Positions 20,921 through 44,913 of a DNA stretch of 64,000 nt are shown here, one piece after another. The notes below the pieces were generated by a model. It was given only the letters and a program-made list of their open reading frames with translations. It ran no database searches and was not told where the DNA came from. The translations under genes were made by a program, and so were the position numbers. This DNA comes from Candidatus Kapaibacterium sp. Its GTDB lineage: Bacteria > Bacteroidota > Ignavibacteria > Kapaibacteriales > UBA2268. Location of the stretch: the NCBI GenBank assembly GCA_963665665.1, contig OY762428.1:4000001-4064000 (forward strand). Direction: 5' to 3'. Each line of letters opens with the position of its first letter. Positions within the stretch are counted from its first letter, which is position 1.

Positions 20921-20994
20921 GCACCCGTGGCTCAACTGGATAGAGCACCTGACTACGGATCAGGAGGTTACAGGTTCGAATCCTGTCGGGTGTA
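20921..20994 (+). tRNA. tRNA-Arg(ACG)
   Basis: Acceptor GCACCCG/CGGGTGT, anticodon arm CCTGA-CTACGGA-TCAGG, T-arm ACAGG-TTCGAAT-CCTGT; CCA not encoded. Confidence 0.97.
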
Positions 20995-21001
20995 CGAAAT
21001 A
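20953..21001 (+). repeat. attL core (49 bp)
   Basis: ctacggatcaggaggttacaggttcgaatcctgtcgggtgtacgaaata, identical to 44865-44913. Confidence 0.95.
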
Positions 21002-21158: not shown

Positions 21159-22229
21159 TTAAAACTTTTCCTCCAATATATCTTTCAATACATCAGTATA
21201 TTTCTTTGTGTACTTTCTGTATGTCAAATTTATATCGGTGTGCCGCATCAGATTTGCAGTGTTTTTTAATGACACCCCGGAATTAATTAATTTATTGCTG
21301 AATGTATTTCTCAGCCTGTGGAAGGATTCCCCAGGAACATAATACCCCAATTTCTTGCACACATTGTTAAATTTTTTTGTCAAATTTGATTTCGACACAG
21401 CCTCCCATTTAAATACCTTTTGTTTCTTAGCACCGTATCTTGATTGTGCAATCTGGTACTGCTCCAACAATAACTCACTTATATTTTTTGTAATAGGGAA
21501 AGTATCAATCACTTCCTTATTTATTTTATTTGGCACTTCGATAATCCCTGTTTCAAAATTTATGTCTGTAAACTTCATGTTAAGCGTTTCACTAATTCTA
21601 AATCCTGTCATATACATAAAACGTATAAGATTATTAAACTCTCTGTCCGGCCTGTAATTTGTTCCTTCCATTGTTTCCAGAAAATTAAATATATGTTCCA
21701 TTTCCTCATCAGAAAATGGCTCTTTGGGCTTATTCTGTACTTTTTTCATAAATTCATTACATATATTCGTTTTCTTGATATACTCTTCGCTAATACAATA
21801 ATTCACAAAAGTACGAATATGCCGCAATGCAGTGTTTTTCGATACAACCTGCATATCGGAATTCAATACAAAACTATTTATCATTTTTTCGAGTATTTTC
21901 TTTGATAATATTTCATCAGGTTTCTCAATAACCTTGCAATATGCCCAATCATAATTTCTCATCGTTTTCGGGGCCCGCCCCTTTGCTGTCTGCCTGTCCA
22001 TAAATTCCTGCCAGGCCTGTGCTATTGTTTTTTGCTTTGCCGCCGCGTCTTCAAACTGCCCGGTTATCTGTTGGCGGTAATACTCGTCCTTCAGCTTGTA
22101 AGCAAGCGCGTAACCCTGCTTGTCAGCATTCAGCCCTGTTTTATACCATTTATTAGATATTTTGATATACAGTTTGTTTCTTTTCTGTACTACGCTCCCC
22201 GGTGAACTTGCTCCGCGTTTCCTTGCCAT
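21159..22229 (-). CDS. Tyrosine recombinase/integrase
   Basis: TGFRISE, FHRLRNTF and LMRHTDINLTYRKY catalytic motifs; ATG 22229 with AGGAGG RBS. Confidence 0.93.
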   Translation of the reverse strand: MARKRGASSPGSVVQKRNKLYIKISNKWYKTGLNADKQGYALAYKLKDEYYRQQITGQFEDAAAKQKTIAQAWQEFMDRQTAKGRAPKTMRNYDWAYCKVIEKPDEILSKKILEKMINSFVLNSDMQVVSKNTALRHIRTFVNYCISEEYIKKTNICNEFMKKVQNKPKEPFSDEEMEHIFNFLETMEGTNYRPDREFNNLIRFMYMTGFRISETLNMKFTDINFETGIIEVPNKINKEVIDTFPITKNISELLLEQYQIAQSRYGAKKQKVFKWEAVSKSNLTKKFNNVCKKLGYYVPGESFHRLRNTFSNKLINSGVSLKNTANLMRHTDINLTYRKYTKKYTDVLKDILEEKF

Positions 22230-22508
22230 TGTGCCCTCCTGTTTTGAAAATAAATTGCGACACCGTTTTTTTGATGCTATAATCAAAGCCAGAATCAATT
22301 TCAATCCAAGTTCTCTTAAGCTCTTCAGCCCAAAATTATGAAGTGAAATGTTGATATTTTTTAATTATTCAATAAATCTATGTTACAATTAACATAGTTG
22401 TTTGAATACATATTTCCAAATTTATCTTTGCAAAAAAAATATTAAAATCAGATTAAAATTTTTAAGTCTAAAAATCACAATTAATTGAATTTTATAGAAT
22501 CCTCTCCC

Positions 22509-26974: not shown

Positions 26975-27102
26975 GCAACTTTTCAGCAACTTTTTGTTGA
27001 TTATCTGCAACAAAGAGCACTGCGTCGCAACTTTTATCAACTTTCTGCAACATTCTGCAATTATTCGCCTGTTGCATCCGTTTTACCGGAACTATCTGCA
27101 AC
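26975..27102. repeat. Helically phased GCAAC repeat array
   Basis: Copies at 26975, 26986, 27007, 27027, 27037 (TCAAC), 27047, 27057 (GCAAT) and 27098; inverted copy at 27071. Confidence 0.7.
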
Positions 27103-28041: not shown

Positions 28042-28303
28042 AATTTGTCTTTCTATTATTAATTATATGTTCGTGTTTCATGTTTGATTGAAGCTATTCA
28101 TGAATATAATTATCTTATAGTTAGTAATAAAATAATTTATATTCGTTTTAAAAATTCTGCCTTCATAATCGCTCTCAGAGCCATTTTAGCCGCAGTCTTC
28201 GATTAAAACCATAGCCCTGCATCCAAATCATCACAATGGTTAAATACGGCGCTAATTCCAAGTCCGGCAGTAATTTCCCCGATTATATCCCCAAATATGG
28301 CTT

Positions 28304-28690
28304 TCATAGTTCCTCCTGGGCATTCGGGAACAACTTCGGGGCATTTTCGAGGAAACGGAAAAGCTCGTCCGTGAGTTCTTTCAGGATTTCATCACTAATC
28401 TTGAATTCATTCATGCAGGCAAACGCCAACATAAGAAAATCCTGAAGATAGCTGCGATAGAAATCAGGGCTGGCAAGAACGTCGTGCTCCATGCTCAGGC
28501 GTTTTGTTTCGTGCTGCTTTCTAAGCATATCGGCAAGGTGGTCAATGGCCTCTTTTTCCGGTGCAAGAGGGAAAAGTATTGCTGCCGGTAAATTATTTTT
28601 CGTCAGGCAGGCAAAACCCAGCTTTTCACTCACCCTTACGAGCTGTGAAATTCCCATTTTCGAGGCTTCGTTCATTGCGAAATTTTGCAT
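28304..28690 (-). CDS. Phd/YefM-like N-terminal domain protein
   Basis: MQNFAMNEASKMGISQLV...LTKNNLPAAILFPL resembles the Phd fold pattern. Confidence 0.55.
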   Translation of the reverse strand: MQNFAMNEASKMGISQLVRVSEKLGFACLTKNNLPAAILFPLAPEKEAIDHLADMLRKQHETKRLSMEHDVLASPDFYRSYLQDFLMLAFACMNEFKISDEILKELTDELFRFLENAPKLFPNAQEEL

Positions 28691-29982: not shown

Positions 29983-29999
29983 CCCTTGACTCTCTCATC

Positions 30000-30119
30000 A
30001 AAATTTGCGATATTGGGAATTGAATGCTCGCGGGGGAGTATTCCGGCAATGGCAGAGCGAAGGGTAGAAAAAATTTAATCAAAGCGGCAGTCTAAGTTGA
30101 CTGGTGTTTTTCGTGGTTT
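30000..30119 (+). repeat. 120-bp direct repeat, copy 2 (leader of the hsd operon)
   Basis: TTGACT-N17-GATATT promoter at 29986-30014, then the shared leader. Confidence 0.9.
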
Positions 30120-30163
30120 ATTTTTTTGTAATTTGGGAAATTATTGAATTTTAAACAGGACAA

Positions 30164-31624
30164 ATGATGTTTGAGCAGACTTTTAAAAATATTGACGATA
30201 TATTATATAAGGACAGCGGCGCAGATAGCGAACTGGATTATATAGGCCAGACTTCCTGGATACTTTTCCTGAAATACCTTGATAACCTGGAAAAGGATAA
30301 ATCCGACAAAGCTGAACTTCGTGGCGAAGATTACAACTATATTCTTGCCGATGAATTTCGCTGGCCAGCATGGGCCATGCCGAAAGATAAGGACGGCAAA
30401 AAGGATCATAATAAAGCCCTGACAGGCCCCGACCTGGTGCAGTTTGTTGATGGGAAGCTCTTTCCATACCTGGCAGGATTTAAGCAGCAGCACAATGATA
30501 AACCGCAAACCATTGAATATAAGATCGGTGAAATATTTTCCGAGTTGAAGAACAAAATCCAGAGCGGCTATAACCTTCGGGAAATTATTGAATATATCGA
30601 TCCTCTGGAATTCCGCACGCAAAAGGATAAACACGAGCTGAGCCACCTGTACGAAAGTAAAATTAAGAACATGGGTAATGCCGGGCGTAACGGCGGGCAA
30701 TACTACACCCCAAGACCGCTTATCCGCGCAATGATTAAGATCATCAAACCGCAGATTGGCGAAAAAGTTTATGACGCTGCCGCAGGCTCCTGCGGATTTC
30801 TTTGCGAAGCTCATGATTATATCTACGGCAGTATGAAGAAAAATACTGCCAACCTGAATACATTGCAGTCCGATACTTTTTACGGCAAGGAGAAAAAGAA
30901 CCTTGCCTACGTTATTGGCATAATGAATATGATACTGCACGGAATTGAAGCTCCCAACCTGATCCATACCAATACGCTGGGCGAGGACATAAGAGGAATC
31001 CAGGAGAAAGACCGCTATCATGTTATATTGGCAAACCCGCCATTTGGTGGCAAGGAAAGAAAGGAAGTTCAGCAGAATTTCGATATTAAAACAGGCGAAA
31101 CTGCTTTTCTATTCCTTCAGCATTTTATTAAAAGCCTTAAGGCCGGGGGCCGCGCCGCTATAGTAATAAAGAACACATTCCTGAGCAACACGGACAATGC
31201 CTCGATCAGTTTGCGTAAACACCTGCTGGAAAGCTGCAACCTGCATACAATCCTTGATATGCCGCAGGGAACATTCCTCGGGGCCGGAGTGAAAACCGTT
31301 GTGCTTTTCTTCCGCAAGGGCGAGCCTACGAAAAGCACATGGTATTACCAGCTTGATCCCGGCCGCAGCCTTGGTAAAACAAATCCGCTTAATGACGCAG
31401 ACCTGGAGGAATTTGTTGAATTGCAGGAGAAAAAGCCGGAAACGGAAAAAAGCTGGAACCTGAAATTTACTGATGTAAACCCGGATACTTTTGACCTTTC
31501 CGTGAAGAACCCGAACACACCCGAGGAAGCCCCGCTGCGAAGCCCTGCCGAAATACTGAAGGAAATGGAAGAGCTTGACGCGGAAACAAAAGCCGTGCTA
31601 TCATCGATCAGGGAGCTGGTATGA
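30164..31624 (+). CDS. hsdM: Type I R-M methyltransferase subunit M
   Basis: GQYYTPRPLI, YDAAAGSCGFL, ANPPFGG. Confidence 0.95.
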   Translation: MMFEQTFKNIDDILYKDSGADSELDYIGQTSWILFLKYLDNLEKDKSDKAELRGEDYNYILADEFRWPAWAMPKDKDGKKDHNKALTGPDLVQFVDGKLFPYLAGFKQQHNDKPQTIEYKIGEIFSELKNKIQSGYNLREIIEYIDPLEFRTQKDKHELSHLYESKIKNMGNAGRNGGQYYTPRPLIRAMIKIIKPQIGEKVYDAAAGSCGFLCEAHDYIYGSMKKNTANLNTLQSDTFYGKEKKNLAYVIGIMNMILHGIEAPNLIHTNTLGEDIRGIQEKDRYHVILANPPFGGKERKEVQQNFDIKTGETAFLFLQHFIKSLKAGGRAAIVIKNTFLSNTDNASISLRKHLLESCNLHTILDMPQGTFLGAGVKTVVLFFRKGEPTKSTWYYQLDPGRSLGKTNPLNDADLEEFVELQEKKPETEKSWNLKFTDVNPDTFDLSVKNPNTPEEAPLRSPAEILKEMEELDAETKAVLSSIRELV

Positions 31625-31661
31625 ACGAAAGAATTAAAGAAAACCTGAAAAAGATAAAAAT

Positions 31662-32777
31662 ATGAAAATTGATTTTAATGAACTGGTAGGGAACATACTT
31701 AGTACTGATTCCGGTTTTCGCAACCATGCTGTCAAATCTGTTGATAAATTGATGACATTACGGAACTGGCTTATTGGCGCTTATATTTTTGAATATGAAC
31801 AGAACGGCGCTGATAAGGCTGAATACGGAAGCAAACTGGAAGAGAATATTGCCGTGAAAATAGACCGGAAAGGGCTTTCTGCAAGAAACTTAAAGCTATT
31901 CAAACAGTTCTATATTACTTATCCACAGATTATGCAGACAGTGTCTGCGTTATCTGAAATCAGCCCGGAAACGGTGCAGACAGTGTCTGCATTATTGCCC
32001 CGAAGAGATCAGGAAGAAATAAAATACCCTGTTTTACCGGATATTCTGATTGAAAATCTTTCATTTTCTCATTTTGTAGAGCTTCTGAAGATAAATGATA
32101 AAAATAAGAGGCTTTTCTACGAAATTCAGGCAATAAAAGGCGCATGGAGTGTAAGAGAACTAAAAAATCAGATCAACAAACTATGTTATGAGCGTACTGC
32201 AAATGCACAAAACACTGATTTTGTTTTGAATTCATTAGTTGAAAAAACTGAAACGCAAAAGCCTAAAGCCATTATTAAAACTCCCTACGTGTTTGATTTT
32301 TTAGAAATTCCTGACGGGATACTTGCATCGGAATCTGAATTGGAAAAAGCGCTGATCAGCGATCTGAAAAACTTTATGATAGAATTGGGGCACGGTTTCT
32401 GTTTCGAAGCGCAGCAAAAACGTATTGTTATTGGCGGAGAATACTATTTTATTGATCTCGTGTTTTATCATAGAATTCTGAAATGCCATATCCTGATCGA
32501 GCTGAAAATAGATGAGTTCAAACATACTTATGCAGGGCAGCTCAACACATATTTGCAATATTATAAACAGAACTTAAAAGAAGAGAATGACAACCCGCCT
32601 ATCGGGATACTGCTTTGTACAAATCAAAATTCCGAACTGGTGGAATATGCATTAGGCGGAATGGACAATAATTTATTTGTCTCTCAATATCAAACAAAAT
32701 TGCCTTCGGAAAAGCAGTTGCAGAAATTTTTACTTGATAAGAAGAAAGATATTGAGGCTTTGGGATATGGCGAATGA
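31662..32777 (+). CDS. YhcG/DUF1016 PD-(D/E)XK nuclease domain protein
   Basis: NWLIGAYIFEYEQNG, LSFSHFVELL, WSVREL, DLVFYHRILKCHILIELK, GQLNTY, PPIGILLC. Confidence 0.93.
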   Translation: MKIDFNELVGNILSTDSGFRNHAVKSVDKLMTLRNWLIGAYIFEYEQNGADKAEYGSKLEENIAVKIDRKGLSARNLKLFKQFYITYPQIMQTVSALSEISPETVQTVSALLPRRDQEEIKYPVLPDILIENLSFSHFVELLKINDKNKRLFYEIQAIKGAWSVRELKNQINKLCYERTANAQNTDFVLNSLVEKTETQKPKAIIKTPYVFDFLEIPDGILASESELEKALISDLKNFMIELGHGFCFEAQQKRIVIGGEYYFIDLVFYHRILKCHILIELKIDEFKHTYAGQLNTYLQYYKQNLKEENDNPPIGILLCTNQNSELVEYALGGMDNNLFVSQYQTKLPSEKQLQKFLLDKKKDIEALGYGE

Positions 32778-32857
32778 GTGGGAATAATATAAATTTTCGA
32801 AAATAACTGAACTATTCTGAACGAAAGAATTAATGAGAATCTGAAGAAGATAAAATA

Positions 32858-33190
32858 ATGAGCTTTAAAGATAAAATAAACCAGCCTGAGTTAAGGCCCG
32901 AGTCAGGGTCTGAGTCAAGGCAAGAGTTGGAGCAAGAGTCTATATATGATGCAGTTATACTCAATCTATTTGGCACTCAACTTTCAAAGGGAAAATTAGC
33001 AAAAGCCCTGGGGCAGAAAAGCGTTTCCGGCGGATTGAAAAAAGTTATCAGCAAGCTGATGGAAGAAGAATTGATAGAATGGACTATTCCCGAAAAACCG
33101 AACAGCTCCAAACAAAAATACAGGCTTACAGCAAAGGGAAAAGGTTATTATAAGACTAAATTTGGAAATGATGTTGGGATTGTGAAATGA
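32858..33190 (+). CDS. Stand-alone winged-HTH resembling the C-terminus of Fic/ATP-binding regulators (possible remnant)
   Basis: LIEWTIPEKPNSSKQKYRLTAKG. Confidence 0.6.
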   Translation: MSFKDKINQPELRPESGSESRQELEQESIYDAVILNLFGTQLSKGKLAKALGQKSVSGGLKKVISKLMEEELIEWTIPEKPNSSKQKYRLTAKGKGYYKTKFGNDVGIVK

Positions 33191-34470
33191 GGGAAAATAT
33201 GAATAATAAAACAATAGATACGGATAAGCCCCGGCAAAAAAGCCCAAAAAACGGGCTGCCGGAGGGTTGGGAAATGAAGGAGCTGGGGGAAGTGTGTGAG
33301 ATTACTCATGGTTTTGCTTTTTCTGGAAAAGATTTTGAAGCAGATTATTATGGAGAAAAACCAATTGTTTTAACACCAGGTAATTTTACTGAAAATTCGA
33401 CTTTAATATTTAATGAAAAAAATACTAAAAGATGTAGGTGTGATTATCCTAAAAAATTTGAATTTAATATTGGCGATCTTGTGGTAGTTATGACCGACTT
33501 GTCATCAAAAATGAAAATACTTGGTAAACCTTCAATAATTGAGTATGAGAATATTCTACATAATCAACGGATAGGTAGATTTATTTTTTCAGAAAATTTA
33601 ATTGAAAAAAGATTTTTATACTTTTTCCTTCAAACAGATTCTTATCTAAAGATGATTAAGAAATCTGCAACAGGGACAATGGTTAGACATACTGCACCAA
33701 AAAGAATTTTAGCAATCCCTATCCCCATCCCTCCCCTTTTGGAGCAGAAGCGGATAGTGGGCATACTTGACCAAGCCTTTGCCGCCATAGACAAGGCCGA
33801 GGCCAATGCCGAACAAAACCTCAAAAACGCCAAAGAACTTTTTGAAAGCTATTTGCAGGGAATTGTTTCAAATGGAAACAAATGGGAAAAGAAAACATTA
33901 GCACAAATTTCTACAACATTTGGACGGGGAAAATCAAAACATCGTCCAAGGAATTGGGAAGGCCTTTATGGGGGTAAATATCCATTTATTCAAACAGGCG
34001 ACATCAGAAATTGCAACCATTTTATAACGGAATATTCACAAACTTATAATGAAGTTGGATTTGCCCAAAGTAAACTTTGGCCAGCAGGAACAATCTGTAT
34101 TACAATTGCTGCAAATATTGCAGAAACAGGTATTTTAACTTTTGATTCGTGCTTTCCTGATAGTGTAATTGGAATTGTTGTTAATAAAAAGTTAGCCGAC
34201 AGAGATTTTGTCGAATATTTATTGCAATCATTTAAAGTCAGAATTCAATCGCTTGGAAAAGGCAGTGCACAAGCAAATATCAATATGGGAACTTTTGAAA
34301 ATGAATTATTCCCATTTCCCCCGGTTAAGGAACAAAAGTTAATTGTTGAAAGATTAAATCAACTTGCCATTGAATGCAATAAGCTTGAAGATATTTATAT
34401 TAAAAAATCAAATAACCTAGAAGAACTGAAAAAAAGTATATTGCAAAAAGCATTTGCAGGGGGGCTGTAG
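33187..34470 (+). CDS. hsdS: Type I R-M specificity subunit S
   Basis: LPEGWEMKELGEV, IPIPPLLEQKRIV, PPVKEQKLIV, LKKSILQKAFAG; two TRDs. Confidence 0.95.
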   Translation: MRENMNNKTIDTDKPRQKSPKNGLPEGWEMKELGEVCEITHGFAFSGKDFEADYYGEKPIVLTPGNFTENSTLIFNEKNTKRCRCDYPKKFEFNIGDLVVVMTDLSSKMKILGKPSIIEYENILHNQRIGRFIFSENLIEKRFLYFFLQTDSYLKMIKKSATGTMVRHTAPKRILAIPIPIPPLLEQKRIVGILDQAFAAIDKAEANAEQNLKNAKELFESYLQGIVSNGNKWEKKTLAQISTTFGRGKSKHRPRNWEGLYGGKYPFIQTGDIRNCNHFITEYSQTYNEVGFAQSKLWPAGTICITIAANIAETGILTFDSCFPDSVIGIVVNKKLADRDFVEYLLQSFKVRIQSLGKGSAQANINMGTFENELFPFPPVKEQKLIVERLNQLAIECNKLEDIYIKKSNNLEELKKSILQKAFAGGL

Positions 34471-34474
34471 TAAG

Positions 34475-35380
34475 ATGAGTAAAGACACTTTGAATTGTAA
34501 AAAAACAAAAATTGTAAGAGGACAAAAAGAAGAATGGGGTGGCCCCTGGACCGAAAGAAAACTGGAAGCTTTTTCAAAATACGTGTGGTCTTACCTTACC
34601 ATAATGAAAAAAAATGACTACTGGCAAACTATCTATTTTGATGGCTTTGCAGGTAGCGGAACCCGAGAGAAAACAAATAAGACTGAATTGTATCAGCAAT
34701 TATCTATAACAGAAGAGGAAGAAAAGACATACAAAGGGGCGGCTGAAAGAGTTCTGGGAATCAAGGATTTATATTTTGATTACTATTATTTTATTGACAA
34801 AAAGGAAGAATCTTTAAATAAATTAAAAGCGAAGTTAGAACCAAAATTTGCTGATAAAAATATTGTTTATAAACACGGGGATGCAAACGAACATATTATT
34901 AATTTGGCAAAATCCTTGAAAACAAAACAATATGCAGCATTAACCTTTCTTGATCCTTTCGGTATGCAGATTGATTGGAACTCAATTGCGAAGCTTAAAG
35001 AAACTCGTTCTGATGTTTGGATATTAGTTCCAACAGGGGTCATAGTAAATCGTTTACTTGATAAAAAAGGAAAACTGATCTTTAGTGAAAAATTAGAATC
35101 ATTTTTTGGTTTATCTGTTGAGGAAATAAGAACTTTTTTTTACAAGGAGGAAAAAAATCTGACCTTATTTGGTGAAGAAAGTGTGATAACAAAAGTCTCT
35201 GAACCAATAGAGAAAATTGCAAAATTATATTGTCAAAGAATGAAAACTATTTGGAAATATGTAACAGAAGAACCCCTTGTATTAAAGAACAGAAATAACT
35301 CCCCAATTTTTCATTTTATTTTTGCTTCTAATAATCCGAATGCCAAAAAGATTGCAAAAGAAATTATTCAAAGGGTATAA
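34475..35380 (+). CDS. tcmP: Three-Cys-motif partner protein TcmP (methyltransferase-like fold)
   Basis: WGGPWTERKL, YFDGFAGSG, GDANE, FLDPFG; adjacent to DUF5131. Confidence 0.88.
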   Translation: MSKDTLNCKKTKIVRGQKEEWGGPWTERKLEAFSKYVWSYLTIMKKNDYWQTIYFDGFAGSGTREKTNKTELYQQLSITEEEEKTYKGAAERVLGIKDLYFDYYYFIDKKEESLNKLKAKLEPKFADKNIVYKHGDANEHIINLAKSLKTKQYAALTFLDPFGMQIDWNSIAKLKETRSDVWILVPTGVIVNRLLDKKGKLIFSEKLESFFGLSVEEIRTFFYKEEKNLTLFGEESVITKVSEPIEKIAKLYCQRMKTIWKYVTEEPLVLKNRNNSPIFHFIFASNNPNAKKIAKEIIQRV

Positions 35381-35383
35381 AAA

Positions 35384-36136
35384 ATGGCAACTAAAATAGA
35401 ATGGACAGAACAGACATGGAATCCTTCAGCGGGTTGCACAAAAAAAAGCGCAGGCTGCAAAAACTGTTATGCAGAAACAATGGCCCACAGGCTTATGCAC
35501 ATGGGTATAAGCGGATACGAGAACGGTTTTAAGTTCAACATTGTTCCTAAACGGTTAAACGATCCTTTGAAAAGAAAGAAGCCCACGATATTTTTTGTAA
35601 ATTCTATGAGCGATATTTTCCACGAAGAGATGCCCGGAGAATATCTTGATAAAATTTTTGAGGTAATTGAACAAACTCCCTGGCATACATATCAAATCCT
35701 GACAAAAAGGGCTGAAAGAATGTATGAATACTTATCAGGAAGGCATATTCCGGAAAATATCTGGCTCGGAGTAACCGTTGAGAACAGGAAAGAAGGCCTG
35801 CCGAGAATAGATAAACTAAGACAATTAAAAGCGAGCGTGTTATTTCTTTCGATAGAACCTTTACTCGAGGATTTGGGGACAATTGATCTTACAAATATTG
35901 ATTGGGTAATTGTCGGTGGAGAAAGTGGCCCAAAGGCAAGGCCAATGGAAAAAAAATGGGTGTTGAATATAAAAACACAATGTGAAAATAAAGACATTGC
36001 TTTCTTCTTTAAACAATGGGGTACATGGGGAGCCGATAAAGTAAAAAGAAATAAAAAATTGAATGGCAAAGAAATTGATGGACGTATTTGGCAGCAATAT
36101 CCCGGAGTTATTGAGCAACGATATATTTTTACATGA
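35384..36136 (+). CDS. DUF5131 / phage Gp37-Gp68 family protein (three-Cys, radical-SAM-like)
   Basis: TWNPSAGCTKKSAGCKNCYAE, VNSMSDIFH, QILTKR, WVIVGGESG, FFFKQWG. Confidence 0.93.
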   Translation: MATKIEWTEQTWNPSAGCTKKSAGCKNCYAETMAHRLMHMGISGYENGFKFNIVPKRLNDPLKRKKPTIFFVNSMSDIFHEEMPGEYLDKIFEVIEQTPWHTYQILTKRAERMYEYLSGRHIPENIWLGVTVENRKEGLPRIDKLRQLKASVLFLSIEPLLEDLGTIDLTNIDWVIVGGESGPKARPMEKKWVLNIKTQCENKDIAFFFKQWGTWGADKVKRNKKLNGKEIDGRIWQQYPGVIEQRYIFT

Positions 36137-36267
36137 TCATTTTTCTTGTTTCTGTTTTGATTGATGTCTGAACCTTGATTATAACTATTCCAGGATTACT
36201 TGATTAAAATAGAAAGGGACAAAATCATGGTTCAAGACAAGAAGTATTTTGAAAGACAGGTGTAATT

Positions 36268-36786
36268 ATGGGAATAATGGAAAAAGGTTTTTCTTTTCGG
36301 CATAATGCCTCATTTGGCAAGAGGATAGAGTATTATATCATCGGCCTGATGCTGAAAGAGGGATTGGACGTTTATGTTCCCCTTGTTGATGACGACGCAA
36401 TAGACGCAGTGGTTAAAAAGCCGGATGGCAATTATGTAGAGATACAGATCAAAGCAAGGTCAAAGGATGTGATATTCGGCGATGCTGCCCTTTTTGCCGC
36501 ACTGACTCACGAGTACAGGCCGAATTACTGGTTCGTGTTCTATTCAGTGCGTATGGATAAAACCTGGATAATGTCTTCAAAAGAATTTATTGAAGAATCC
36601 GTGCAGAACAAAAAGGGAAAGAACAAAGGCAAAAGGTCAATATGGTTCAACGGAAAGAACAGCAAAGATCAGACTGAGCACGTAAAGCCCCAGTTCGAAA
36701 AATATCTTGTGAATGATTTTTCAAGAATTATAAACGATAATCCGGATGAGGGTTTTCCACTGTTTAAACAAGAGGAGAAGATATGA
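36268..36786 (+). CDS. Small PD-(D/E)XK-fold endonuclease
   Basis: GKRIE...VYVPLVDDDAIDAVV...EIQIKARS. Confidence 0.75.
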   Translation: MGIMEKGFSFRHNASFGKRIEYYIIGLMLKEGLDVYVPLVDDDAIDAVVKKPDGNYVEIQIKARSKDVIFGDAALFAALTHEYRPNYWFVFYSVRMDKTWIMSSKEFIEESVQNKKGKNKGKRSIWFNGKNSKDQTEHVKPQFEKYLVNDFSRIINDNPDEGFPLFKQEEKI

Positions 36787-38275
36787 CAAATCAAACTGAA
36801 TTTTTACAAACTGATACCGAAAACAAACCTATGTCGGCCAGTGTAACTCTGAAAAATCCGAAAGTAATTATTCCTGCCGATAATCCATTTGCTAACTGCA
36901 AGCTTGGCCGAGAAGCATACGCAGAAGTTCTGACAAATATAGTTGAGAACTATGCTGAAGGCTTTGTTCTTGCCCTTAACAGTGAATGGGGAAGCGGGAA
37001 GACAACATTTGTGGAAATGTGGCAAAAACATCTTGAGTTACAAGATTTCAAAACAATATATTTCAATGCCTGGGAAAACGATCTTGAAAGTGATCCGCTT
37101 ATTGCACTTATATCAGAAATGAAAAGTATTGCTGGTGATTCAAACAATGATAAATTTAAAAAGGTCATTAAAAACGCTGCTCCTCTTACGAAAACTGTAA
37201 TTAAAGGTTTAGCTAAAGGAGTTATTGAACGTTATGCAGGAGATGGTTTCGTTGGTGACCTTGCGATGGCAGCAACCGATCAGTCAATAAAGATATTTGA
37301 AAAAAAAGTAGAATTATATACAAAGCAAAAAAAGGGAATCAAGGAATTTCATGATAGTCTGGTAGATTTTGTAAAAAGTGAAAATGCTGAAAACAAACCG
37401 ATTGTTTTCTTTATTGATGAAATGGACAGATGCCGCCCGGACTATGCCGTTGAATTGCTTGAAAAGATAAAGCACCTTTTCGATATACCGGGTATAGTTT
37501 TTGTCCTTTCAATCGATAAGGAACAATTGAAACATGCTATTTGCGGGGTTTACGGCAGCGGTGAAATAAATTCCGAGGAGTATCTTCGCAGATTTATTGA
37601 TGTTGAATATTCACTGCCGGAACCGGATAAGGAGAAATATATTGATTTTCTTTTTGAATTTTATAGATTTGAAGAATTAGTACGCCCATTTATTCATTTC
37701 CAGGCGGATGATAGAGAAATTATCAATTTGAAAAAGACTGCAAGTATTTTATTTTCAAAGGAAAATGTGATCCTTAGGCAACAGGAAAAAATTATAGCAA
37801 GAACAAGACTGATTATCAATTCATATAACAGAAAAGAACGCATTTTTCCGGAATTTCTATTATTTATGATATATATAAAAACATTTCAACCTGAACTTTA
37901 TATATCCATAAAATTTAAAATATTACCTCGTAGAGAAGTACAAACAAAAATTGACGACCTTTTATCAGAATTTTTGTCATTAGATAGTCAAATAACACTT
38001 TTAAATATTGAAGCACAATCTTATTTTTCTATGGCAAGAATTTTCAAGAGAGAGATAGTATTTATTTATGGTTTAAAAAAGAAGAAAAGATATTGAATTT
38101 TGAATCAAATTTGGAAATCAGTACATTAAACAATTATGTAGGATATGAAAAATCGACAGAATTAATTAGAAGACGGTTATTTGATCTGCATAATACCTAT
38201 GATACTATTCCGATAAATGTTGATTATTACATAAATAAAATCGAATTGTACGAAAAATTGGAAATCGCCAAATGA
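36783..38275 (+). CDS. KAP family P-loop NTPase, apparently frameshifted near 38019 (track ORFs 36783..38096 and 38093..38275)
   Basis: EWGSGKTTF, FFIDEMDRCRPDYAVELLEKIKHLF, YLRRFID; the alternate frame continues to a TGA that overlaps the hsdR ATG. Confidence 0.85.
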
Positions 38276-40776
38276 ATGAAGCCCAGACAGAACTTGATTT
38301 GATTGATCCCGCGCTGGACGCGGCGGGTTGGAGAGATACCGAAGGCGCTAAAATACATAAGCAGTTCCCTATTGCCAGTGGCCGGATAACAGGAAAAAAC
38401 ATGCGCTCCAAACCGCTACGTGCGGACTACGTGCTGCAATATCGGAACAGGTATATAGGCGTTATCGAGGGAAAAGCAAGCAATAAATATTATACCGAAG
38501 GTGTGGGCCAGGCTAAAAACTATGCCTTTATGCTGAACATTCGTTTTGCCTTTGCTACAAACGGCCACAAATCCTACCGTATTGACATGCAGGAGGGCAG
38601 CGAGGGCGATATTAGTAAATTCCCGACGCCGGATGAACTTTGGGAAATGACATTCCCGAAAAAGTCAACCGACCTGGCAACCCGTGAGGACTTATGGAAG
38701 GACAGGATGCTTTCCGTGCCATACGAAACAAAAAGCGGCACATGGCGGCCCCGTTACTATCAGGAAAATGCAGTAACCGCCGTGCTGGACTCTCTGGCTG
38801 AAGGAAAGAAAAGAATTCTGCTGACACTTGCCACCGGTACCGGAAAAACAGATATTGCATTCCAGATAGCATGGAAACTATACGAATCACGCTGGAACCT
38901 GCAATTCGACGGCAAAAGAAGGCCGAGGATACTTTTCCTGGCGGACAGGAACCTGCTGGCAGACCAGGCATTCAACAAGTTCAATTCATTCAATGCATTC
39001 GAGGAAAACGCGCTAGTGCGTATCTCGCCAGGCGAAATCAGCAAAAAACAGAAACCGCTTACAAACGGGAATATGTTTTATACAATTTTCCAGACTTTCA
39101 TGGCCGAGAACATTCAGCCCAAGGCAAAAAGAAATAAAATTTCAGCAAAAGCTACGGATAAAGATATTAGCAATATAAAAAGTGCCGCCGAACCCGACCA
39201 GGAATACACTACGGCAAACATGAAACCAAATTTCGGACAATACCCCAAAGACTTCTTTGATTTGATAATTATCGACGAATGTCACAGGGGCGGCTCCAAC
39301 GATGAAAGCACATGGCGCGGAATTCTTGAGTATTTCAGCCCGGCGGTTCAACTCGGGCTGACCGCCACGCCAAAAAGAGAAGTGAACAAAGATACCTACC
39401 TATACTTTGGCGATCCGGTATATGTTTATTCCCTGAAGCAGGGCATAAACGACGGTTTTCTTACCCCTTTCAAAGTAAAGGCAATTTCAACCACCGAGGA
39501 CGTATATAAATATACTTCGGGCGATACAGTTCTCCAGGGGGAGATTGACGAGGAGAGGGAATACGGACTGAAAGAACAGAACAGGATAATCATTATTCCT
39601 GCATTGGAAGAATACCGGGTAAAAGTATTTCTCGATAAAATTGATCAGGATCAGAAAACTCTGGTATTCTGTGCTACACAGAAACACGCTGCCATGGTTC
39701 GGGACTTTATTAACCAGCACGCAAGAAGTAAAAATCCGGATTACTGCCAGAGGGTAACGGCAAACGACGGGGCCGTAGGCGAACAGCATTTGAAGAACTT
39801 CCAGGACAATGAACGAACTATCCCTACAATCCTTACAACTTCCCAGAAACTGAGTACAGGAGTTGACGCGCCGGAGATCAGGAATATTATTCTTATGAGA
39901 ACGGTTAATTCCATAGTTGAATTCAAACAGATTATTGGCAGGGGTACCCGACTTTATGAAGGCAAGCCCTATTTCACTCTTTACGACTTTTACAAAGCAC
40001 ACGAGCATTTCAGCGATCCGGAATGGGACGGCGAACCGATAGAACCGGAAATATGCAAAAAATGCGGGAAATATCCCTGCGAATGCGAACCTGTGGTTTG
40101 TATAAAATGCGGTCAGTTCCCCTGCATTTGCATAAAAGAGCCGCCGGAGCCATGTCCCAATTGCCATAATATACCCTGCATTTGCGACAGGCCTGATAAA
40201 ACAATTAAGGTAATGCTATCGGATAATAAGGTCAGGGAACTTGATTCGATGGTGAAAACAAGATTCTACAGCCCGGACGGGAAAACAATTTCAGCCGAGG
40301 AATTCATTCGTATGCTGTTTGGCGATTTGCCGGGTCTGTTCAGGGATGAAGAAGAACTGCGGAAATTATGGAGCAGTCCGGTAACAAGAAAGCAACTACT
40401 TGAAGAGCTGAATAATATTGGTTACACTGCCGATCAGCTTGAAGACCTTTCCAAGCTTGTTCACGGCGAAGACAGCGACCTGTTTGATGTGCTAAACTAT
40501 ATTGCCTACCACCGTGAAATGATACCGAGGAAGAAAAGGGCTGATCAGGCCCGAAAATATTTCAATGTTTACAGCGACAACCAGCGTGATTTTCTGGACT
40601 TCGTGCTAAAGCAGTACATCAGTATCGGCTTTGACGAGCTTGACGACAGCAAACTTCCGGAACTACTCACCTTGAAGTACCAGGCAATAGGAGACGCGCA
40701 AGAGAAACTTGGGGAGATAAAATCCATACGTGAAACATTCATCAGCTTCCAGGAACATTTATACCGGGTAGCATAG
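38272..40776 (+). CDS. hsdR: Type I R-M restriction subunit R (EcoAI/EcoEI-like)
   Basis: ADYVL...VIEGK, LATGTGKT, IIDECHRG, GLTATP, QIIGRGTRL. Confidence 0.95.
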   Translation: MNEAQTELDLIDPALDAAGWRDTEGAKIHKQFPIASGRITGKNMRSKPLRADYVLQYRNRYIGVIEGKASNKYYTEGVGQAKNYAFMLNIRFAFATNGHKSYRIDMQEGSEGDISKFPTPDELWEMTFPKKSTDLATREDLWKDRMLSVPYETKSGTWRPRYYQENAVTAVLDSLAEGKKRILLTLATGTGKTDIAFQIAWKLYESRWNLQFDGKRRPRILFLADRNLLADQAFNKFNSFNAFEENALVRISPGEISKKQKPLTNGNMFYTIFQTFMAENIQPKAKRNKISAKATDKDISNIKSAAEPDQEYTTANMKPNFGQYPKDFFDLIIIDECHRGGSNDESTWRGILEYFSPAVQLGLTATPKREVNKDTYLYFGDPVYVYSLKQGINDGFLTPFKVKAISTTEDVYKYTSGDTVLQGEIDEEREYGLKEQNRIIIIPALEEYRVKVFLDKIDQDQKTLVFCATQKHAAMVRDFINQHARSKNPDYCQRVTANDGAVGEQHLKNFQDNERTIPTILTTSQKLSTGVDAPEIRNIILMRTVNSIVEFKQIIGRGTRLYEGKPYFTLYDFYKAHEHFSDPEWDGEPIEPEICKKCGKYPCECEPVVCIKCGQFPCICIKEPPEPCPNCHNIPCICDRPDKTIKVMLSDNKVRELDSMVKTRFYSPDGKTISAEEFIRMLFGDLPGLFRDEEELRKLWSSPVTRKQLLEELNNIGYTADQLEDLSKLVHGEDSDLFDVLNYIAYHREMIPRKKRADQARKYFNVYSDNQRDFLDFVLKQYISIGFDELDDSKLPELLTLKYQAIGDAQEKLGEIKSIRETFISFQEHLYRVA

Positions 40777-40793
40777 GAAGGTGAGGTGCATAA

Positions 40794-40958
40794 TTGGCTG
40801 AAAACATTAAATATCTATACCATTATACTAAATTCGATTCGGGAATAAAGATTTTGGAATCCCAATCGCTAAGAATGTATAATGCACTTTCGCAAAGCGA
40901 TCCTTATGATATTGTATATGGAGCGCAAGAAGCTTTTAAAATGAGCAGGCGGAAATGA
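40794..40958 (+). pseudogene. Truncated DUF2971-like N-terminal fragment (54 aa)
   Basis: GAGGTG RBS plus TTG start; YLYHYTKFDSGIKILESQSLRMYNALSQSDPYD matches the LYHYT...IL...L.....DP pattern. Confidence 0.5.
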
Positions 40959-41720: not shown

Positions 41721-44084
41721 TTATTTAAACATGCTGTTATTTCCAGGATTCGGGTTGTTTTTGGGATCGTCAGCAACTTTTTGCCGGGCTTCCGGTTTAA
41801 ATTTTAATCCGGTTATATATTTTTTATTTCCAGTACTTGTAATTTTTTTAAATCCTTTTTCTTCCAGTTTTCTGTAAAAAGTTCTGTTGCCAAGTATCCT
41901 TTCAGAATATTCTCTGCACCAGGTCTGGTATGATACGAAAACACTTTTCGCAAGTATCTTATCATTCGGATCATTTGTTATATCAAAAAATTCCTCAAGG
42001 AAATCCTGGACAATGTCATTTTCATTGCGGTATTCACTTGTCGCGGAAGTTACTATTCTTGGTGGTTGCAGGCCGTACATCTGGTATTTCTTCCATCCTT
42101 CTATCATCCAGTTCAGGATCACGGATTTCTCGTTCATAAGTTCGTCCATAATCTCATCAGCAGGGCGGCGTTCATCATCGGAAATGGTAACGGTAAAGGG
42201 AATAATCAATATGCGTCGCCATATTCCTTCGTCCGTGCCTTTTATTATTGGTTTGTGGTTGCCGTACATCCAAAGCGTGTGCGTGGGGAAGAAATCAAAA
42301 AACTCCTGCCGCAGGAAACGCGCCGTAATTTTGTCGTGGCCTGTCAGGTCTTTTACTTTTTCCTCGTTCAGGCGGCGGCTTTCCGGTAGTTCCGAGCTTA
42401 CTACCAGCCTGTGGCCCACGATACGCGCCAAATCGTTGGATATACCTTCGTTTTGCCTTTGCATCAGAGTATCGGCCCCGATTTTCATACCGTAATCGCC
42501 AAACATCTTATCCAGCACGTTAAAGAAAATGGATTTTCCGTTCTTACCTGTGCCATAGCAGAAGAAAAGAACTTCTTCGCTAACATTTCCGTTCATGGTG
42601 TAGCCCACGGCCCTTTGCACAAAATCGATAAGCTCCTGGTTATCATCAAAAACTGTGGCAAGGAATAAATCCCATGCAACGCCCATATCCTCGTCGGGTT
42701 TATACTCGGCATCAACGATATTTGTTATCATATCTTCGCGCTGGTGGGGGGTTTTGAAAACATTGTCCCGCAGGTCGTAAGTTCCGTTTGCCAGGTTAAA
42801 CAGGTGGTTATGTTTATTATAATCGCTTTCCAGTGTGGCAAACCCGTTCCGGCCCTTTGCCATTTTTATTGAATTATAAAAAGTGCTGGCGCTTTGGGAT
42901 TTCAGGCTCCATTTGTAAAGTTCCTTTTTTTTCCCTCCGTTTTTTTCCTGGCTTGCCTCAATCTTCAGCTTCATAACGGTTTCATCCATGTACCTTTCAT
43001 GCTTATCTTTCTCGTCCAGGTTCCATTTTGTTCCGTCCCATATCATCCATTTGCCTCGGTTATGGTTAAAGCGCAGGGTATCCTTCCATTGCTCGTAAAA
43101 CCTGACGGAGTTTCCGCGTTCCGTCATATCGGGGCCTTCGTTCTTTGCGCGGTTGGCCTCGGCAATACCCGGAATTTTATTAATATCGTAGCCGTAATGC
43201 TTCGCAAAGTATATTAGCGTTCCGATACTGATATTCCGCAGGCGGTATTTCATTTTTCGGGCTGTCCCCATATCTTCGTCGCGGCTCCAGTTTTCTACAA
43301 TATCCACGGCGGTAGTCATATCCGATTCAAAATAATTGCCAATGGCGGAAATTATCTTCAGCCAAACATAGTAGCCGGGATAGGGGGGTATCGCGTCCAG
43401 CATTTCTTCTATGTGTTTGCGCCCGATTTCCCTGTCCGCGTACTCCCTGTAAAACTTTGTTTTGGGTTCCTCGTGGTGGTAGTCCTGCTTTGCTGCTTCC
43501 CAAAAAGATCGTGTCATCAGGTTATCAAAAATATAGAAGTCACCTTTCGAGCTGCCGTAATACATTCGGGAAACATCTTTGCACTGATCGTCCGCGTCGT
43601 ATTTGCGGATAAAGAACAATACTGTTTCCTGGAACTGTGTGGCGCTCAGGCTTGTTTTTTGGAACGAAAGAACTATCCTGAACTTGTGATGCTCCGGCGT
43701 ATGGCTTGCAGTGGTATAAATCATTACGGCATTATTTGTCAGCTCGGGATCATTTACAGCATCTTCAACCCGGAAGTATCCCTCGTGTTCTTTTTTGCAT
43801 CTTATTTCGCCGGTTTCCTTGTCAGTAATAGTGTTATCAATATCCAGGGCCACCAGCCGGGCTTTCAGGAAATTAGCCGCGCCGCGCCCTTCTTTCGGGT
43901 TTTTCCAATACGCACAGGAAAAGGCAAACCCTTTTGCAATATGCTCCTTCAGCTCTTCGGCAGTAAGCTCGGCATTTTCCCATTTATGCGTATCAGCAGC
44001 GCGGTTATGGGCCTTATCAATAATCCCCTTGTTAATACTGCAAGGGTATGTTCTTGGTTTTGTTTTTTTAACTAAGTCAATCAT
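41721..44084 (-). CDS. P4/D5-family primase-helicase (prim-pol, PriCT-2-like, D5_N, SF3 helicase)
   Basis: ALDIDN, YTTASH, KFRIV; GTGKNGKS, LTGHDKITARFL, NHKPIIKGTDEGIWRR. Confidence 0.93.
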   Translation of the reverse strand: MIDLVKKTKPRTYPCSINKGIIDKAHNRAADTHKWENAELTAEELKEHIAKGFAFSCAYWKNPKEGRGAANFLKARLVALDIDNTITDKETGEIRCKKEHEGYFRVEDAVNDPELTNNAVMIYTTASHTPEHHKFRIVLSFQKTSLSATQFQETVLFFIRKYDADDQCKDVSRMYYGSSKGDFYIFDNLMTRSFWEAAKQDYHHEEPKTKFYREYADREIGRKHIEEMLDAIPPYPGYYVWLKIISAIGNYFESDMTTAVDIVENWSRDEDMGTARKMKYRLRNISIGTLIYFAKHYGYDINKIPGIAEANRAKNEGPDMTERGNSVRFYEQWKDTLRFNHNRGKWMIWDGTKWNLDEKDKHERYMDETVMKLKIEASQEKNGGKKKELYKWSLKSQSASTFYNSIKMAKGRNGFATLESDYNKHNHLFNLANGTYDLRDNVFKTPHQREDMITNIVDAEYKPDEDMGVAWDLFLATVFDDNQELIDFVQRAVGYTMNGNVSEEVLFFCYGTGKNGKSIFFNVLDKMFGDYGMKIGADTLMQRQNEGISNDLARIVGHRLVVSSELPESRRLNEEKVKDLTGHDKITARFLRQEFFDFFPTHTLWMYGNHKPIIKGTDEGIWRRILIIPFTVTISDDERRPADEIMDELMNEKSVILNWMIEGWKKYQMYGLQPPRIVTSATSEYRNENDIVQDFLEEFFDITNDPNDKILAKSVFVSYQTWCREYSERILGNRTFYRKLEEKGFKKITSTGNKKYITGLKFKPEARQKVADDPKNNPNPGNNSMFK

Positions 44085-44864: not shown

Positions 44865-44913
44865 CTACGGATCAGGAGGTTACAGGTTCGAATCCTGTCG
44901 GGTGTACGAAATA
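44865..44913 (+). repeat. attR core (duplicated 3' half of tRNA-Arg)
   Basis: Identical to 20953-21001; lacks the 5' half of the tRNA. Confidence 0.95.

What the first reader, a model, noticed from the sequence alone, without database searches (positions are those of the whole stretch)
30164..40958. Type I R-M operon interleaved with TcmP-DUF5131, two PD-(D/E)XK nucleases and a KAP NTPase
Seen: the order M, yhcG, wHTH, S, tcmP, DUF5131, nuclease, KAP, R, with short gaps or ATGA overlaps (nuclease/KAP, KAP/hsdR). TcmP carries methyltransferase-like motifs (DGFAGSG, DPFG) and DUF5131 has a Cx6CxxC radical-SAM-like motif. The pairing is known but its function is not established to my knowledge. 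Inference: a second DNA-modification chemistry, with a possible cognate nuclease, co-expressed with the R-M system as a layered or backup defence. This is my best candidate for an undescribed system in the window.
Basis: partly seen in the sequence, partly recalled or inferred. Interest (0 to 1): 0.75.

Follow-up and report, generated by a model that had tools for sequence, protein, structure and literature searches.

The report
Restriction operon with stacked passenger genes
A restriction-modification operon on a mobile element carries several separately acquired passenger genes, most already listed as untested anti-phage candidates, and its methyltransferase-like/radical-SAM pair never travels with the neighbouring nuclease in the relatives examined, so it is likely not a new modify-and-cut system, although this lineage of the pair keeps sitting inside such operons.

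Summary
The nine genes are real and in the stated order. The apparent KAP frameshift is an assembly error, so both ATGA overlaps hold. The core is an EcoAI/FtnUII-family type I R-M operon in the swappable slot of a 24-kb tRNA-Arg element; a sister element carries a different R-M there. tcmP-DUF5131, yhcG and KAP match untested PADLOC candidates (PDC-M41/M30, S02, S20), a set built from R-M-embedded genes. The wHTH gene is a deletion remnant. The 'cognate nuclease' idea fails: it flanks 0 of 98 tcmP loci and occurs in 0 of 27 other tcmP-bearing genomes, and it sits in such operons without the pair. DUF5131 folds like spore photoproduct lyase; TcmP is a class I methyltransferase fold; chemistry untested. 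The scan has reported this pair in many other genomes, including between hsdS and hsdR. Ordinary architecture; open chemistry.

The parts
20953..21001 (+). attL: 3' part of tRNA-Arg(ACG) (gene 20921-20995), left end of the integrated element
   Evidence: 49-nt exact direct repeat with 44865-44913; tRNA
21159..22304 (-). tyrosine integrase of the element
   Evidence: PF00589 6e-24; 96% identical copy in sister element E2
30164..31624 (+). hsdM, N6-adenine methyltransferase subunit, NPPF motif
   Evidence: PF02384 5e-59; PADLOC MTase_I 9e-159; motifs
31613..31665 (+). scar 1: 3' tail of an hsdM of another family (the E2 type), overlapping the hsdM stop
   Evidence: 53-nt repeat D6; reads ...NERIKENLKKIKI*, like the E2 HsdM end
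31662..32777 (+). yhcG (DUF1016) PD-(D/E)XK nuclease, PADLOC candidate PDC-S02; at least 9 long paralogues elsewhere in the genome
   Evidence: PF06250, PF17761; PDC-S02 3e-119; paralogues at 30-35% identity
32809..32861 (+). scar 2: second copy of the E2-type hsdM tail
32858..33190 (+). 110-aa in-frame deletion remnant (first ~10 residues joined to the C-terminal wHTH) of a 514-aa Schlafen/AlbA_2-HATPase-wHTH protein that is intact in sister element E2
   Evidence: 87% and 94% DNA identity to the two ends of the E2 gene; E2 domains
33187..34470 (+). hsdS, two target-recognition domains
   Evidence: PF01420, 2 stretches; PADLOC Specificity_I
34475..35380 (+). tcmP, class I SAM-methyltransferase fold, DGFAGSG and DPFG; PDC-M41A
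   Evidence: TIGR04474 146.6 bits, cut-off 53; PDC-M41A 1e-110; folds
35384..36136 (+). DUF5131 (Gp37/Gp68), Cx6CxxC radical-SAM fold closest to spore photoproduct lyase; PDC-M41B/M30B
   Evidence: PF07505 6e-107; folds
36268..36786 (+). small PD-(D/E)XK (D...QxK) nuclease-like protein, independent passenger
   Evidence: PF11645 below cut-off; D46 invariant, E21/Q60/K62 near-invariant in 38 relatives; contexts
36783..38275 (+). KAP-family NTPase, PDC-S20; one frame in the read data, split in the window by a missing base
   Evidence: PF07693 4e-44; PDC-S20 3e-145; extra T behind 38018 in 3 of 3 holding runs
38272..40776 (+). hsdR, EcoAI/FtnUII family; nuclease, Walker A and DEAH-type motifs intact
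   Evidence: NF046051 753 bits, cut-off 550; motifs
41721..44084 (-). P4/D5-type primase-helicase of the element
   Evidence: TIGR01613, PF08706
44084..44416 (-). excisionase-like HTH
   Evidence: TIGR01764 above cut-off
44865..44913 (+). attR, right end of the element

Best explanation
The block is an EcoAI/FtnUII-family type I restriction-modification operon, in the exchangeable slot of a 24-kb integrated element, that has likely collected four unrelated passengers (yhcG plus a broken regulator, tcmP-DUF5131, a small nuclease, a KAP NTPase), of which only tcmP-DUF5131 behaves as a fixed two-gene unit, predicted to act on DNA bases without a cutting partner. SHOWN: gene content, element ends, recombination scars, independent distribution of the passengers, folds. 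INFERRED FROM FAMILY KNOWLEDGE: M2S methylates adenines in a bipartite site and R2M2S translocates and cuts unmethylated DNA; passengers placed in-strand between hsd genes are likely co-transcribed and co-transferred. INFERRED, UNTESTED (my committed mechanism, about 0.4 on its own): DUF5131 binds a [4Fe-4S] cluster through C18/C25/C28, cleaves SAM to a 5'-deoxyadenosyl radical and abstracts a hydrogen from a damaged or modified nucleotide in DNA, as spore photoproduct lyase does. TcmP binds SAM and would methylate or hold the base next to it. The pair would be a DNA-damage-linked base-processing module, useful when DNA is being broken or chemically altered during phage attack or restriction, and independent of the HsdS sequence specificity.
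For: Element: 49-nt att repeats. Sister element E2 is 90-93% identical at DNA level over both arms but holds an unrelated type I R-M and other cargo; a third element holds a third family. Mosaic: two tails of an E2-type hsdM and the deleted AlbA gene; GC3 0.51-0.53 for hsdM/hsdR against 0.26-0.27 for hsdS/tcmP/KAP and 0.47 for the nuclease. Variable slot: 35 of 400 other genomes carry this hsdM family; of the 26 with a complete hsdM-hsdR interval none has tcmP, DUF5131, KAP or yhcG, 2 have the nuclease, and the rest carry PDDEXK_3, IS200-like TnpA, RhuM, OLD+UvrD, HipA, IrrE and others or nothing. Independence: nuclease 0 of 98 and KAP 0 of 98 tcmP loci, 38 of them well flanked; 7 of 8 KAP relatives have no hsd gene within 1.5 kb. 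Pair: DUF5131 follows tcmP in 71 of 73 loci with room; purifying selection, e.g. tcmP dN 0.19 vs dS 2.3. Folds: SPL is the top hit (Foldseek E 5e-4; Z 12.8, rmsd 3.2, 194 aligned, next 10.8); RadicalSAM.org puts DUF5131 in megacluster 5 with SPL (PMC9477430, passage). DNA-damage link: a lexA gene is translationally coupled upstream of tcmP-DUF5131 in 5 loci of one lineage.
Against: The window's TcmP lineage is in a type I operon in 26 of 27 informative loci, in two R-M families, and co-diverges with HsdR in one family (Mantel r 0.45 and 0.70, 12 loci): more fidelity than a random passenger should show. The lexA operon is one lineage, distant from the window's (TcmP 49-52% identical). The TcmP fold match is not specific (many methyltransferases within 1 Z unit; model pLDDT 70.6). 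No residue-level comparison with the SPL active site was possible. No expression data.
Confidence: 0.7

Rival explanations
1. This lineage of tcmP-DUF5131 is a dedicated type I R-M accessory, a PrrC-like guard or helper. It would be triggered when the R-M enzyme is inhibited or has cut, and would then attack phage DNA or make an antiviral nucleotide.
For: 26 of 27 informative loci of the 95*-supported clade are in type I operons; the pair lies between hsdS and hsdR in both M-S-R (EcoAI type) and R-S-M (PRK11448-like) operons; the EcoAI-embedded TcmPs nest inside those embedded in the other family, so the lineage changed R-M family and stayed embedded. PrrC precedent (Payne 2024 discussion; PMC12707154 passage).
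Against: HsdM and HsdR of the two host families are only about 25-30% identical, so a specific protein contact is hard to keep. More distant TcmPs are mostly outside type I operons (2 of 20 well flanked), some beside type IIG R-M, AbiH or housekeeping genes. No toxic effector domain was recognised. Embedding by linkage alone (the 'genomic sink' reading) gives the same pattern, and the loci are kin.
Confidence: 0.2
2. One reading: TcmP-DUF5131 writes a second mark on host DNA and the 172-aa nuclease (or YhcG) cuts unmarked DNA, a second R-M layer in one operon.
For: Methyltransferase and radical-SAM folds with invariant catalytic-type motifs; all genes in-strand and closely spaced; nuclease motifs intact.
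Against: Nuclease beside 0 of 98 tcmP loci and yhcG beside 1 of 98; 27 genomes have tcmP without the nuclease and 2 have the nuclease without tcmP; in those 2 it follows hsdS directly; in 7 of 7 loci from other phyla it has neither pair nor hsd gene nearby; 131-nt gap and a different codon style separate it from DUF5131.
Confidence: 0.05
3. The pair is not DNA-directed: it modifies RNA or a small molecule and merely hitchhikes.
For: Best TcmP folds are RNA methyltransferases (RlmJ, Trm1) and many small-molecule methyltransferases score alike; viperin and other radical-SAM enzymes follow SPL within about 2 Z units.
Against: SPL is the top fold in two searches; contexts are R-M, lexA and defence genes.
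Confidence: 0.15

Closest known systems
PADLOC phage-defence candidates PDC-M41 (and PDC-M30); Payne et al., bioRxiv 10.1101/2024.01.29.577857
   Same: TcmP matches PDC-M41A (1e-110) and DUF5131 matches PDC-M41B/M30B (1e-108, 2e-113), adjacent and in-strand. The PDC set was derived from genes embedded in BREX, DISARM and type I R-M systems and is stated to be untested (sections read).
   Different: Nothing in kind. The main text does not name M41; its supplementary tables could not be seen. Added here: the R-M fidelity of one TcmP lineage across two type I families, and the DUF5131 swap.
EcoAI/FtnUII-family type I R-M (NCBIfam NF046051)
   Same: HsdR above the cut-off; HsdM with NPPF; two-domain HsdS; catalytic motifs intact.
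   Different: Six extra genes between hsdM and hsdR, against 0-5 same-strand ORFs in 26 relatives; specificity unknown; subunit exchange with EcoAI not testable.
PrrC in EcoprrI (R-M-embedded guard)
   Same: Embedded in a type I operon; the lineage is rarely found outside one.
   Different: PrrC is an ABC-ATPase anticodon nuclease held inactive by its R-M enzyme; the pair has no such domains and no shown contact or toxicity.
Spore photoproduct lyase (SplB; PDB 4fhc)
   Same: Top structural match of DUF5131 (Z 12.8, 194 residues, rmsd 3.2); three-Cys motif.
   Different: Cx6CxxC instead of the usual CxxxCxxC (recalled), 250 vs 340 aa, 16% identity, obligate methyltransferase-fold partner; substrate unknown.
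Stand-alone KAP NTPase defence proteins (EF_KAP, PMC13552941; PDC-S20)
   Same: KAP domain with Walker A/B intact; single-gene KAP systems protect against phage (passages).
   Different: Not tested whether this one shares their membrane helices or C-terminal region; its relatives are 31-43% identical and mostly solo.

Membership tests
EcoAI/FtnUII-family type I R-M | HsdR above the curated family cut-off with nuclease and motor motifs | tested here: met
   NF046051 753 vs 550 bits; D-x13-E-x-K at 52, ATGTGKT, DECH, QIIGRGTR
EcoAI/FtnUII-family type I R-M | HsdM N6-methyltransferase and HsdS with two target-recognition domains in the same operon | tested here: met
EcoAI/FtnUII-family type I R-M | Type IB in the strict sense: subunit exchange with EcoAI; restriction activity | not testable with these tools
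   families are defined by subunit exchange (PMC12707154 table)
PADLOC PDC-M41 | Adjacent A (TcmP) and B (DUF5131) genes matching the models | tested here: met
   3-nt gap
PADLOC PDC-M41 | Anti-phage activity | not testable with these tools
   candidates are untested in the source paper; no test found in searches
Radical SAM superfamily (SPL-like) | Three conserved cluster cysteines | tested here: met
   C18, C25, C28 invariant in 58 of 58 sequences, variant spacing Cx6CxxC
Radical SAM superfamily (SPL-like) | Partial TIM-barrel fold | tested here: met
   model pLDDT 91.9; top VIA hits are radical-SAM enzymes, SPL first
Radical SAM superfamily (SPL-like) | [4Fe-4S] binding and reductive SAM cleavage | not testable with these tools
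   needs anaerobic biochemistry
DNA amino-methyltransferase | Class I fold with SAM-binding motif I and a DP-aromatic motif IV | tested here: met
   D56/G57/F58/G60/G62, D108, D136/N138, D160-P-F-G invariant in 36 close relatives; folds
DNA amino-methyltransferase | DNA rather than RNA or small molecule as substrate; a target-recognition domain | tested here: inconclusive
   best folds are RlmJ/Trm1 and many others within 1 Z unit; no profile similarity to the window's HsdM; no PDB sequence hit
Modification system with cognate nuclease | Writer and nuclease co-occur across genomes | tested here: not met
   0 of 98 loci (38 well flanked), 0 of 27 genomes; nuclease present without the pair
PrrC-like R-M guard | Near-exclusive embedding in type I R-M | tested here: inconclusive
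   met for the window's clade (26 of 27), not for the family (2 of 20 distant well-flanked loci)
PrrC-like R-M guard | Binds the R-M enzyme and is activated by its inhibition | not tested
   no structure prediction of a complex was available; needs experiment

The most novel reading that the evidence does not exclude
One lineage of TcmP-DUF5131 has become a dedicated accessory of type I restriction enzymes: it stays between hsdS and hsdR through a jump between two unrelated type I families and through replacement of its radical-SAM partner, because it performs radical chemistry on DNA that the R-M enzyme has marked, cut or failed to cut. That would be the first radical-SAM/methyltransferase arm of restriction-modification immunity, with a base chemistry not yet seen.
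Probability: 0.15. Interest if true: 0.75.

Novelty: new member of a known kind. Interest (0 to 1): 0.3.

Why it matters
As an arrangement it is ordinary: defence genes stacked in a type I operon on a mobile element, with three of the passengers already catalogued. It matters as a test case. TcmP-DUF5131 is widespread, under purifying selection and has no chemistry in the papers searched. The finding that one lineage is nearly confined to type I operons of two families gives a direct test (pair with and without hsdMSR and anti-restriction proteins) of whether it is a PrrC-like helper or a hitchhiking DNA-damage module. The analysis also removes the nuclease from that test.

Tried and rejected
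1) KAP as a pseudogene: suggested by the window, rejected by the extra base in 3 of 3 holding runs, all one sample. 2) wHTH as an operon regulator: rejected as an intact gene; residual DNA binding not excluded. 3) Cognate nuclease: rejected. 4) My first reading that the pair had followed one R-M family through a rearrangement (family labels pooled) was wrong; separating families showed two different R-M families. 5) Strict co-evolution of TcmP and DUF5131: rejected for the EcoAI-embedded group (AU p 4e-10). 6) The 57% identity split was chosen after seeing the data; the tree counts replace it. 7) Nuclease: no PDB sequence hit; Atlas neighbours of a homologue are unnamed or 'group I intron-associated PD-(D/E)XK' clusters; 656 representatives at 50% clustering, some with N-terminal DUF7662/DUF7669; one plasmid copy next to an SOS-associated peptidase gene, no R-M or pair nearby; viral contigs were not scanned. 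8) TcmP in annotated phages: 2 of 50,697 records, 26% identity. 9) Promoter/terminator scan uninformative (47 sites vs 31.9 +/- 7.1 by chance, sigma-70 consensus may not fit this host). 10) No RNA holder listed. 12) Papers: searches for DUF5131 (1 paper), TcmP + three-Cys-motif (2), PDC names (10 papers, none with PDC-M41 or PDC-S20), accession terms (6), and three mechanism searches (1, 0, 1 papers) found no experimental study; subscription journals and bioRxiv supplements are not covered.
Full report
OBSERVATION. The nine ORFs are present, in-strand and in the stated order, with junctions of +37, +80, -4, +4, +3, +131 and -4 nt. In the window KAP ends at 38096 and its tail lies in another frame that stops at 38273-38275. 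Contigs of the 3 runs that hold the stretch (one sample; the fourth run laid nothing) show one extra T behind 38018 in a 7144-base contig with no other difference. The break is an assembly error and the KAP/hsdR ATGA overlap is real.

SETTING. The block lies in a 24-kb element bounded by a 49-nt repeat of the tRNA-Arg(ACG) 3' end (20953-21001, 44865-44913), with an integrase, a P4/D5 primase and an excisionase-like gene; no phage structural gene was recognised among the ORFs scanned. The genome holds a sister, E2, at tRNA-Asn, 90-93% identical over both arms but with a type I R-M of another family and other cargo in the same slot, and a third element, E3, with a third type I family. The R-M block is thus exchangeable cargo. 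The host is probably Bacteroidota in the wide sense (inference from homologue names and secretion-tail proteins in relatives; no call names it).

THE OPERON IS A MOSAIC. HsdR is EcoAI/FtnUII family (753 bits, cut-off 550) with intact motifs. A 53-nt repeat before yhcG and before the wHTH gene is the 3' tail of an E2-type hsdM, and the wHTH gene is the two ends of E2's 514-aa Schlafen/AlbA_2-HATPase-wHTH gene joined in frame. So yhcG and the remnant came from an operon of another R-M family. GC3 is 0.51-0.53 in hsdM/hsdR, 0.26-0.27 in hsdS, tcmP and KAP, 0.35-0.36 in DUF5131 and yhcG, and 0.47 in the nuclease, against a host median of 0.37 over 583 long ORFs of the first 1.5 Mb. Of 400 other genomes of the phylum sample, 35 carry this hsdM family; all 35 regions were fetched, 26 reach hsdR. 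None of the 26 has tcmP, DUF5131, KAP or yhcG, 2 have the nuclease, 5 have no extra gene, and the others carry varied genes.

ALREADY CATALOGUED. TcmP matches PDC-M41A, DUF5131 PDC-M41B/M30B, YhcG PDC-S02 and KAP PDC-S20. Searches found no experimental study of the pair. The scan's index holds 176 notes on the pair in at least 170 genomes, several between hsdS and hsdR (unchecked AI notes).

NO COGNATE NUCLEASE. I examined 98 tcmP loci: the 80 kept of 103 metagenome hits and 18 of the 27 tcmP-positive genomes, extended; the 9 left out were weak, partial or on short contigs. The nuclease is beside 0 of 98, KAP 0 of 98, yhcG 1 of 98; 38 loci have at least 2.5 kb upstream and 3.3 kb downstream. 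In the 400 genomes, 27 have tcmP and 2 others have the nuclease, with no overlap. In those 2 the nuclease directly follows hsdS of an EcoAI-type operon; in 7 of 7 loci from other phyla and archaea no hsd, tcmP or DUF5131 gene was found nearby, some on short contigs. It is a real, conserved PD-(D/E)XK protein (3837 relatives, top 120 at 75-86% identity; motifs; synonymous sites saturated) but an independent passenger. KAP relatives (8 genomes) have no nuclease or pair within 1.5 kb, and 1 of 8 lies upstream of an hsdM.

THE PAIR. DUF5131 follows tcmP in 71 of 73 loci with room to see it. Its model (pLDDT 91.9) matches spore photoproduct lyase first in both searches (E 5e-4; Z 12.8, rmsd 3.2, 194 aligned, next 10.8); C18, C25, C28 are invariant in 58 sequences. 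RadicalSAM.org files DUF5131 in megacluster 5 beside SPL (PMC9477430, one passage). TcmP (pLDDT 70.6) is a class I methyltransferase fold, RlmJ and Trm1 first by Foldseek, a DUF519 protein first but tied with others by VIA (Z 13.7, rmsd 4.7, 199 aligned); that DPFG resembles the Trm1/RlmJ catalytic motif is recalled, not tested. Five loci of one lineage have lexA directly upstream, 1-nt gaps in the three complete ones, a DNA-damage link that agrees with earlier scan notes but is a single event far from the window's lineage. Other non-type-I copies sit beside type IIG R-M, AbiH, HNH, RhuM or housekeeping genes (58 of 102 neighbours scanned, more).

WHAT IS ADDED. In a 96-sequence tree the window's TcmP lies in a clade (support 95) of 31, of which 27 have informative flanks and 26 are in type I operons: 11 of the window's family (order M-S-pair-R, window included) and 15 of the E3, PRK11448-like family (order R-pair-S-M) (same nesting in the IQ-TREE quick tree of 61 rows). 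HsdM and HsdR of the two families are about 25-30% identical. Within the E3 family TcmP and DUF5131 distances follow HsdR (Mantel r 0.45, 0.70; 12 loci after dropping near-copies); within the window's family the signal is weak or absent (r 0.54, p 0.06; r 0.0; 6 loci). The 11 EcoAI-embedded loci have one TcmP clade but two distant DUF5131 types (AU p 4e-10): a partner is needed but can be replaced. Against over-reading: these loci are kin and metagenomic, outside the clade embedding is rare (2 of 20 well-flanked distant loci), and linkage alone can hold a passenger in place.

MECHANISM AND VERDICT. Best reading: a working type I R-M enzyme (inferred from motifs) with stacked, independent passengers (confidence 0.7). 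For the pair I commit to an SPL-like radical attack on a damaged or modified DNA base, with TcmP as SAM-binding partner, independent of HsdS specificity (about 0.4; untested). A PrrC-like guard role (0.2; PrrC from PMC12707154 passages) and an RNA or small-molecule substrate (0.15) remain open; a second mark with its own nuclease is unlikely (0.05). These chemistry odds overlap the architecture reading and do not sum to one. KAP may be a single-gene defence like EF_KAP (PMC13552941 passages). Novelty: new member of a known kind; interest 0.3.

Noticed in passing
G000:C1:1404484-1430620 (L008, L009) and G000:C1:722938-740447 (L010): Two sister integrated elements in the same genome, one at tRNA-Asn with 60-nt att repeats; each carries a different type I R-M family with its own embedded cargo (E2: DUF4268/NucS-like, AlbA_2-HATPase, AAA_13; E3: DUF6946, HigBA-like pair by eye). 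One genome, three R-M families on related carriers.
   Followed up: partly
window 36268-36786; L001-L007, L125, L126, L187: The small nuclease family is unnamed, very conserved across phyla (75-86% identity in the top 120 of 3837), usually alone among housekeeping genes, and R-M-embedded in 3 of 3 copies in this phylum sample; some relatives carry N-terminal DUF7662/DUF7669. No PADLOC, NCBIfam or PDB match. It may be a single-gene defence or mobile nuclease worth its own test.
   Followed up: partly
window 36165-36180 and 36223-36239: Imperfect inverted repeat in the 131-nt gap between DUF5131 and the nuclease; no full second copy in the genome; significance not tested.
   Followed up: partly
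window 40060-40185: Three Cys-rich repeats (CxxCGxxPCxC-like) inside hsdR before the C-terminal domain (repeat D8); possible zinc-binding linker.
   Followed up: no
L089, L094, L104 (also L100, L103, cut): lexA-tcmP-DUF5131 operon with 1-nt gaps; LexA copies about 90% identical, one lineage.
   Followed up: partly
protein P0131: 395-aa protein joining an EcoAI-type HsdM N-terminus to a nearly whole TcmP; probably a deletion or assembly chimera from an M-S-tcmP locus, single contig.
   Followed up: no
window 40794-40958: 54-codon frame after hsdR with a 'LYHYT...IL' start that recalls DUF2971 proteins (recalled; no Pfam match); likely a gene remnant.
   Followed up: partly
window 27061-28690 and 29983-30126: HTH gene plus 128-aa gene and a 144-nt leader repeat recur at several places in the genome; the repeat directly precedes hsdM.
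   Followed up: no
window 31927-31972 (inside yhcG): A short palindromic stretch in yhcG also occurs in the E2 element downstream of its AlbA gene.
   Followed up: no
L135, L136: Two genomes have tcmP without a following DUF5131 and on long branches: possibly decaying orphans.
   Followed up: no
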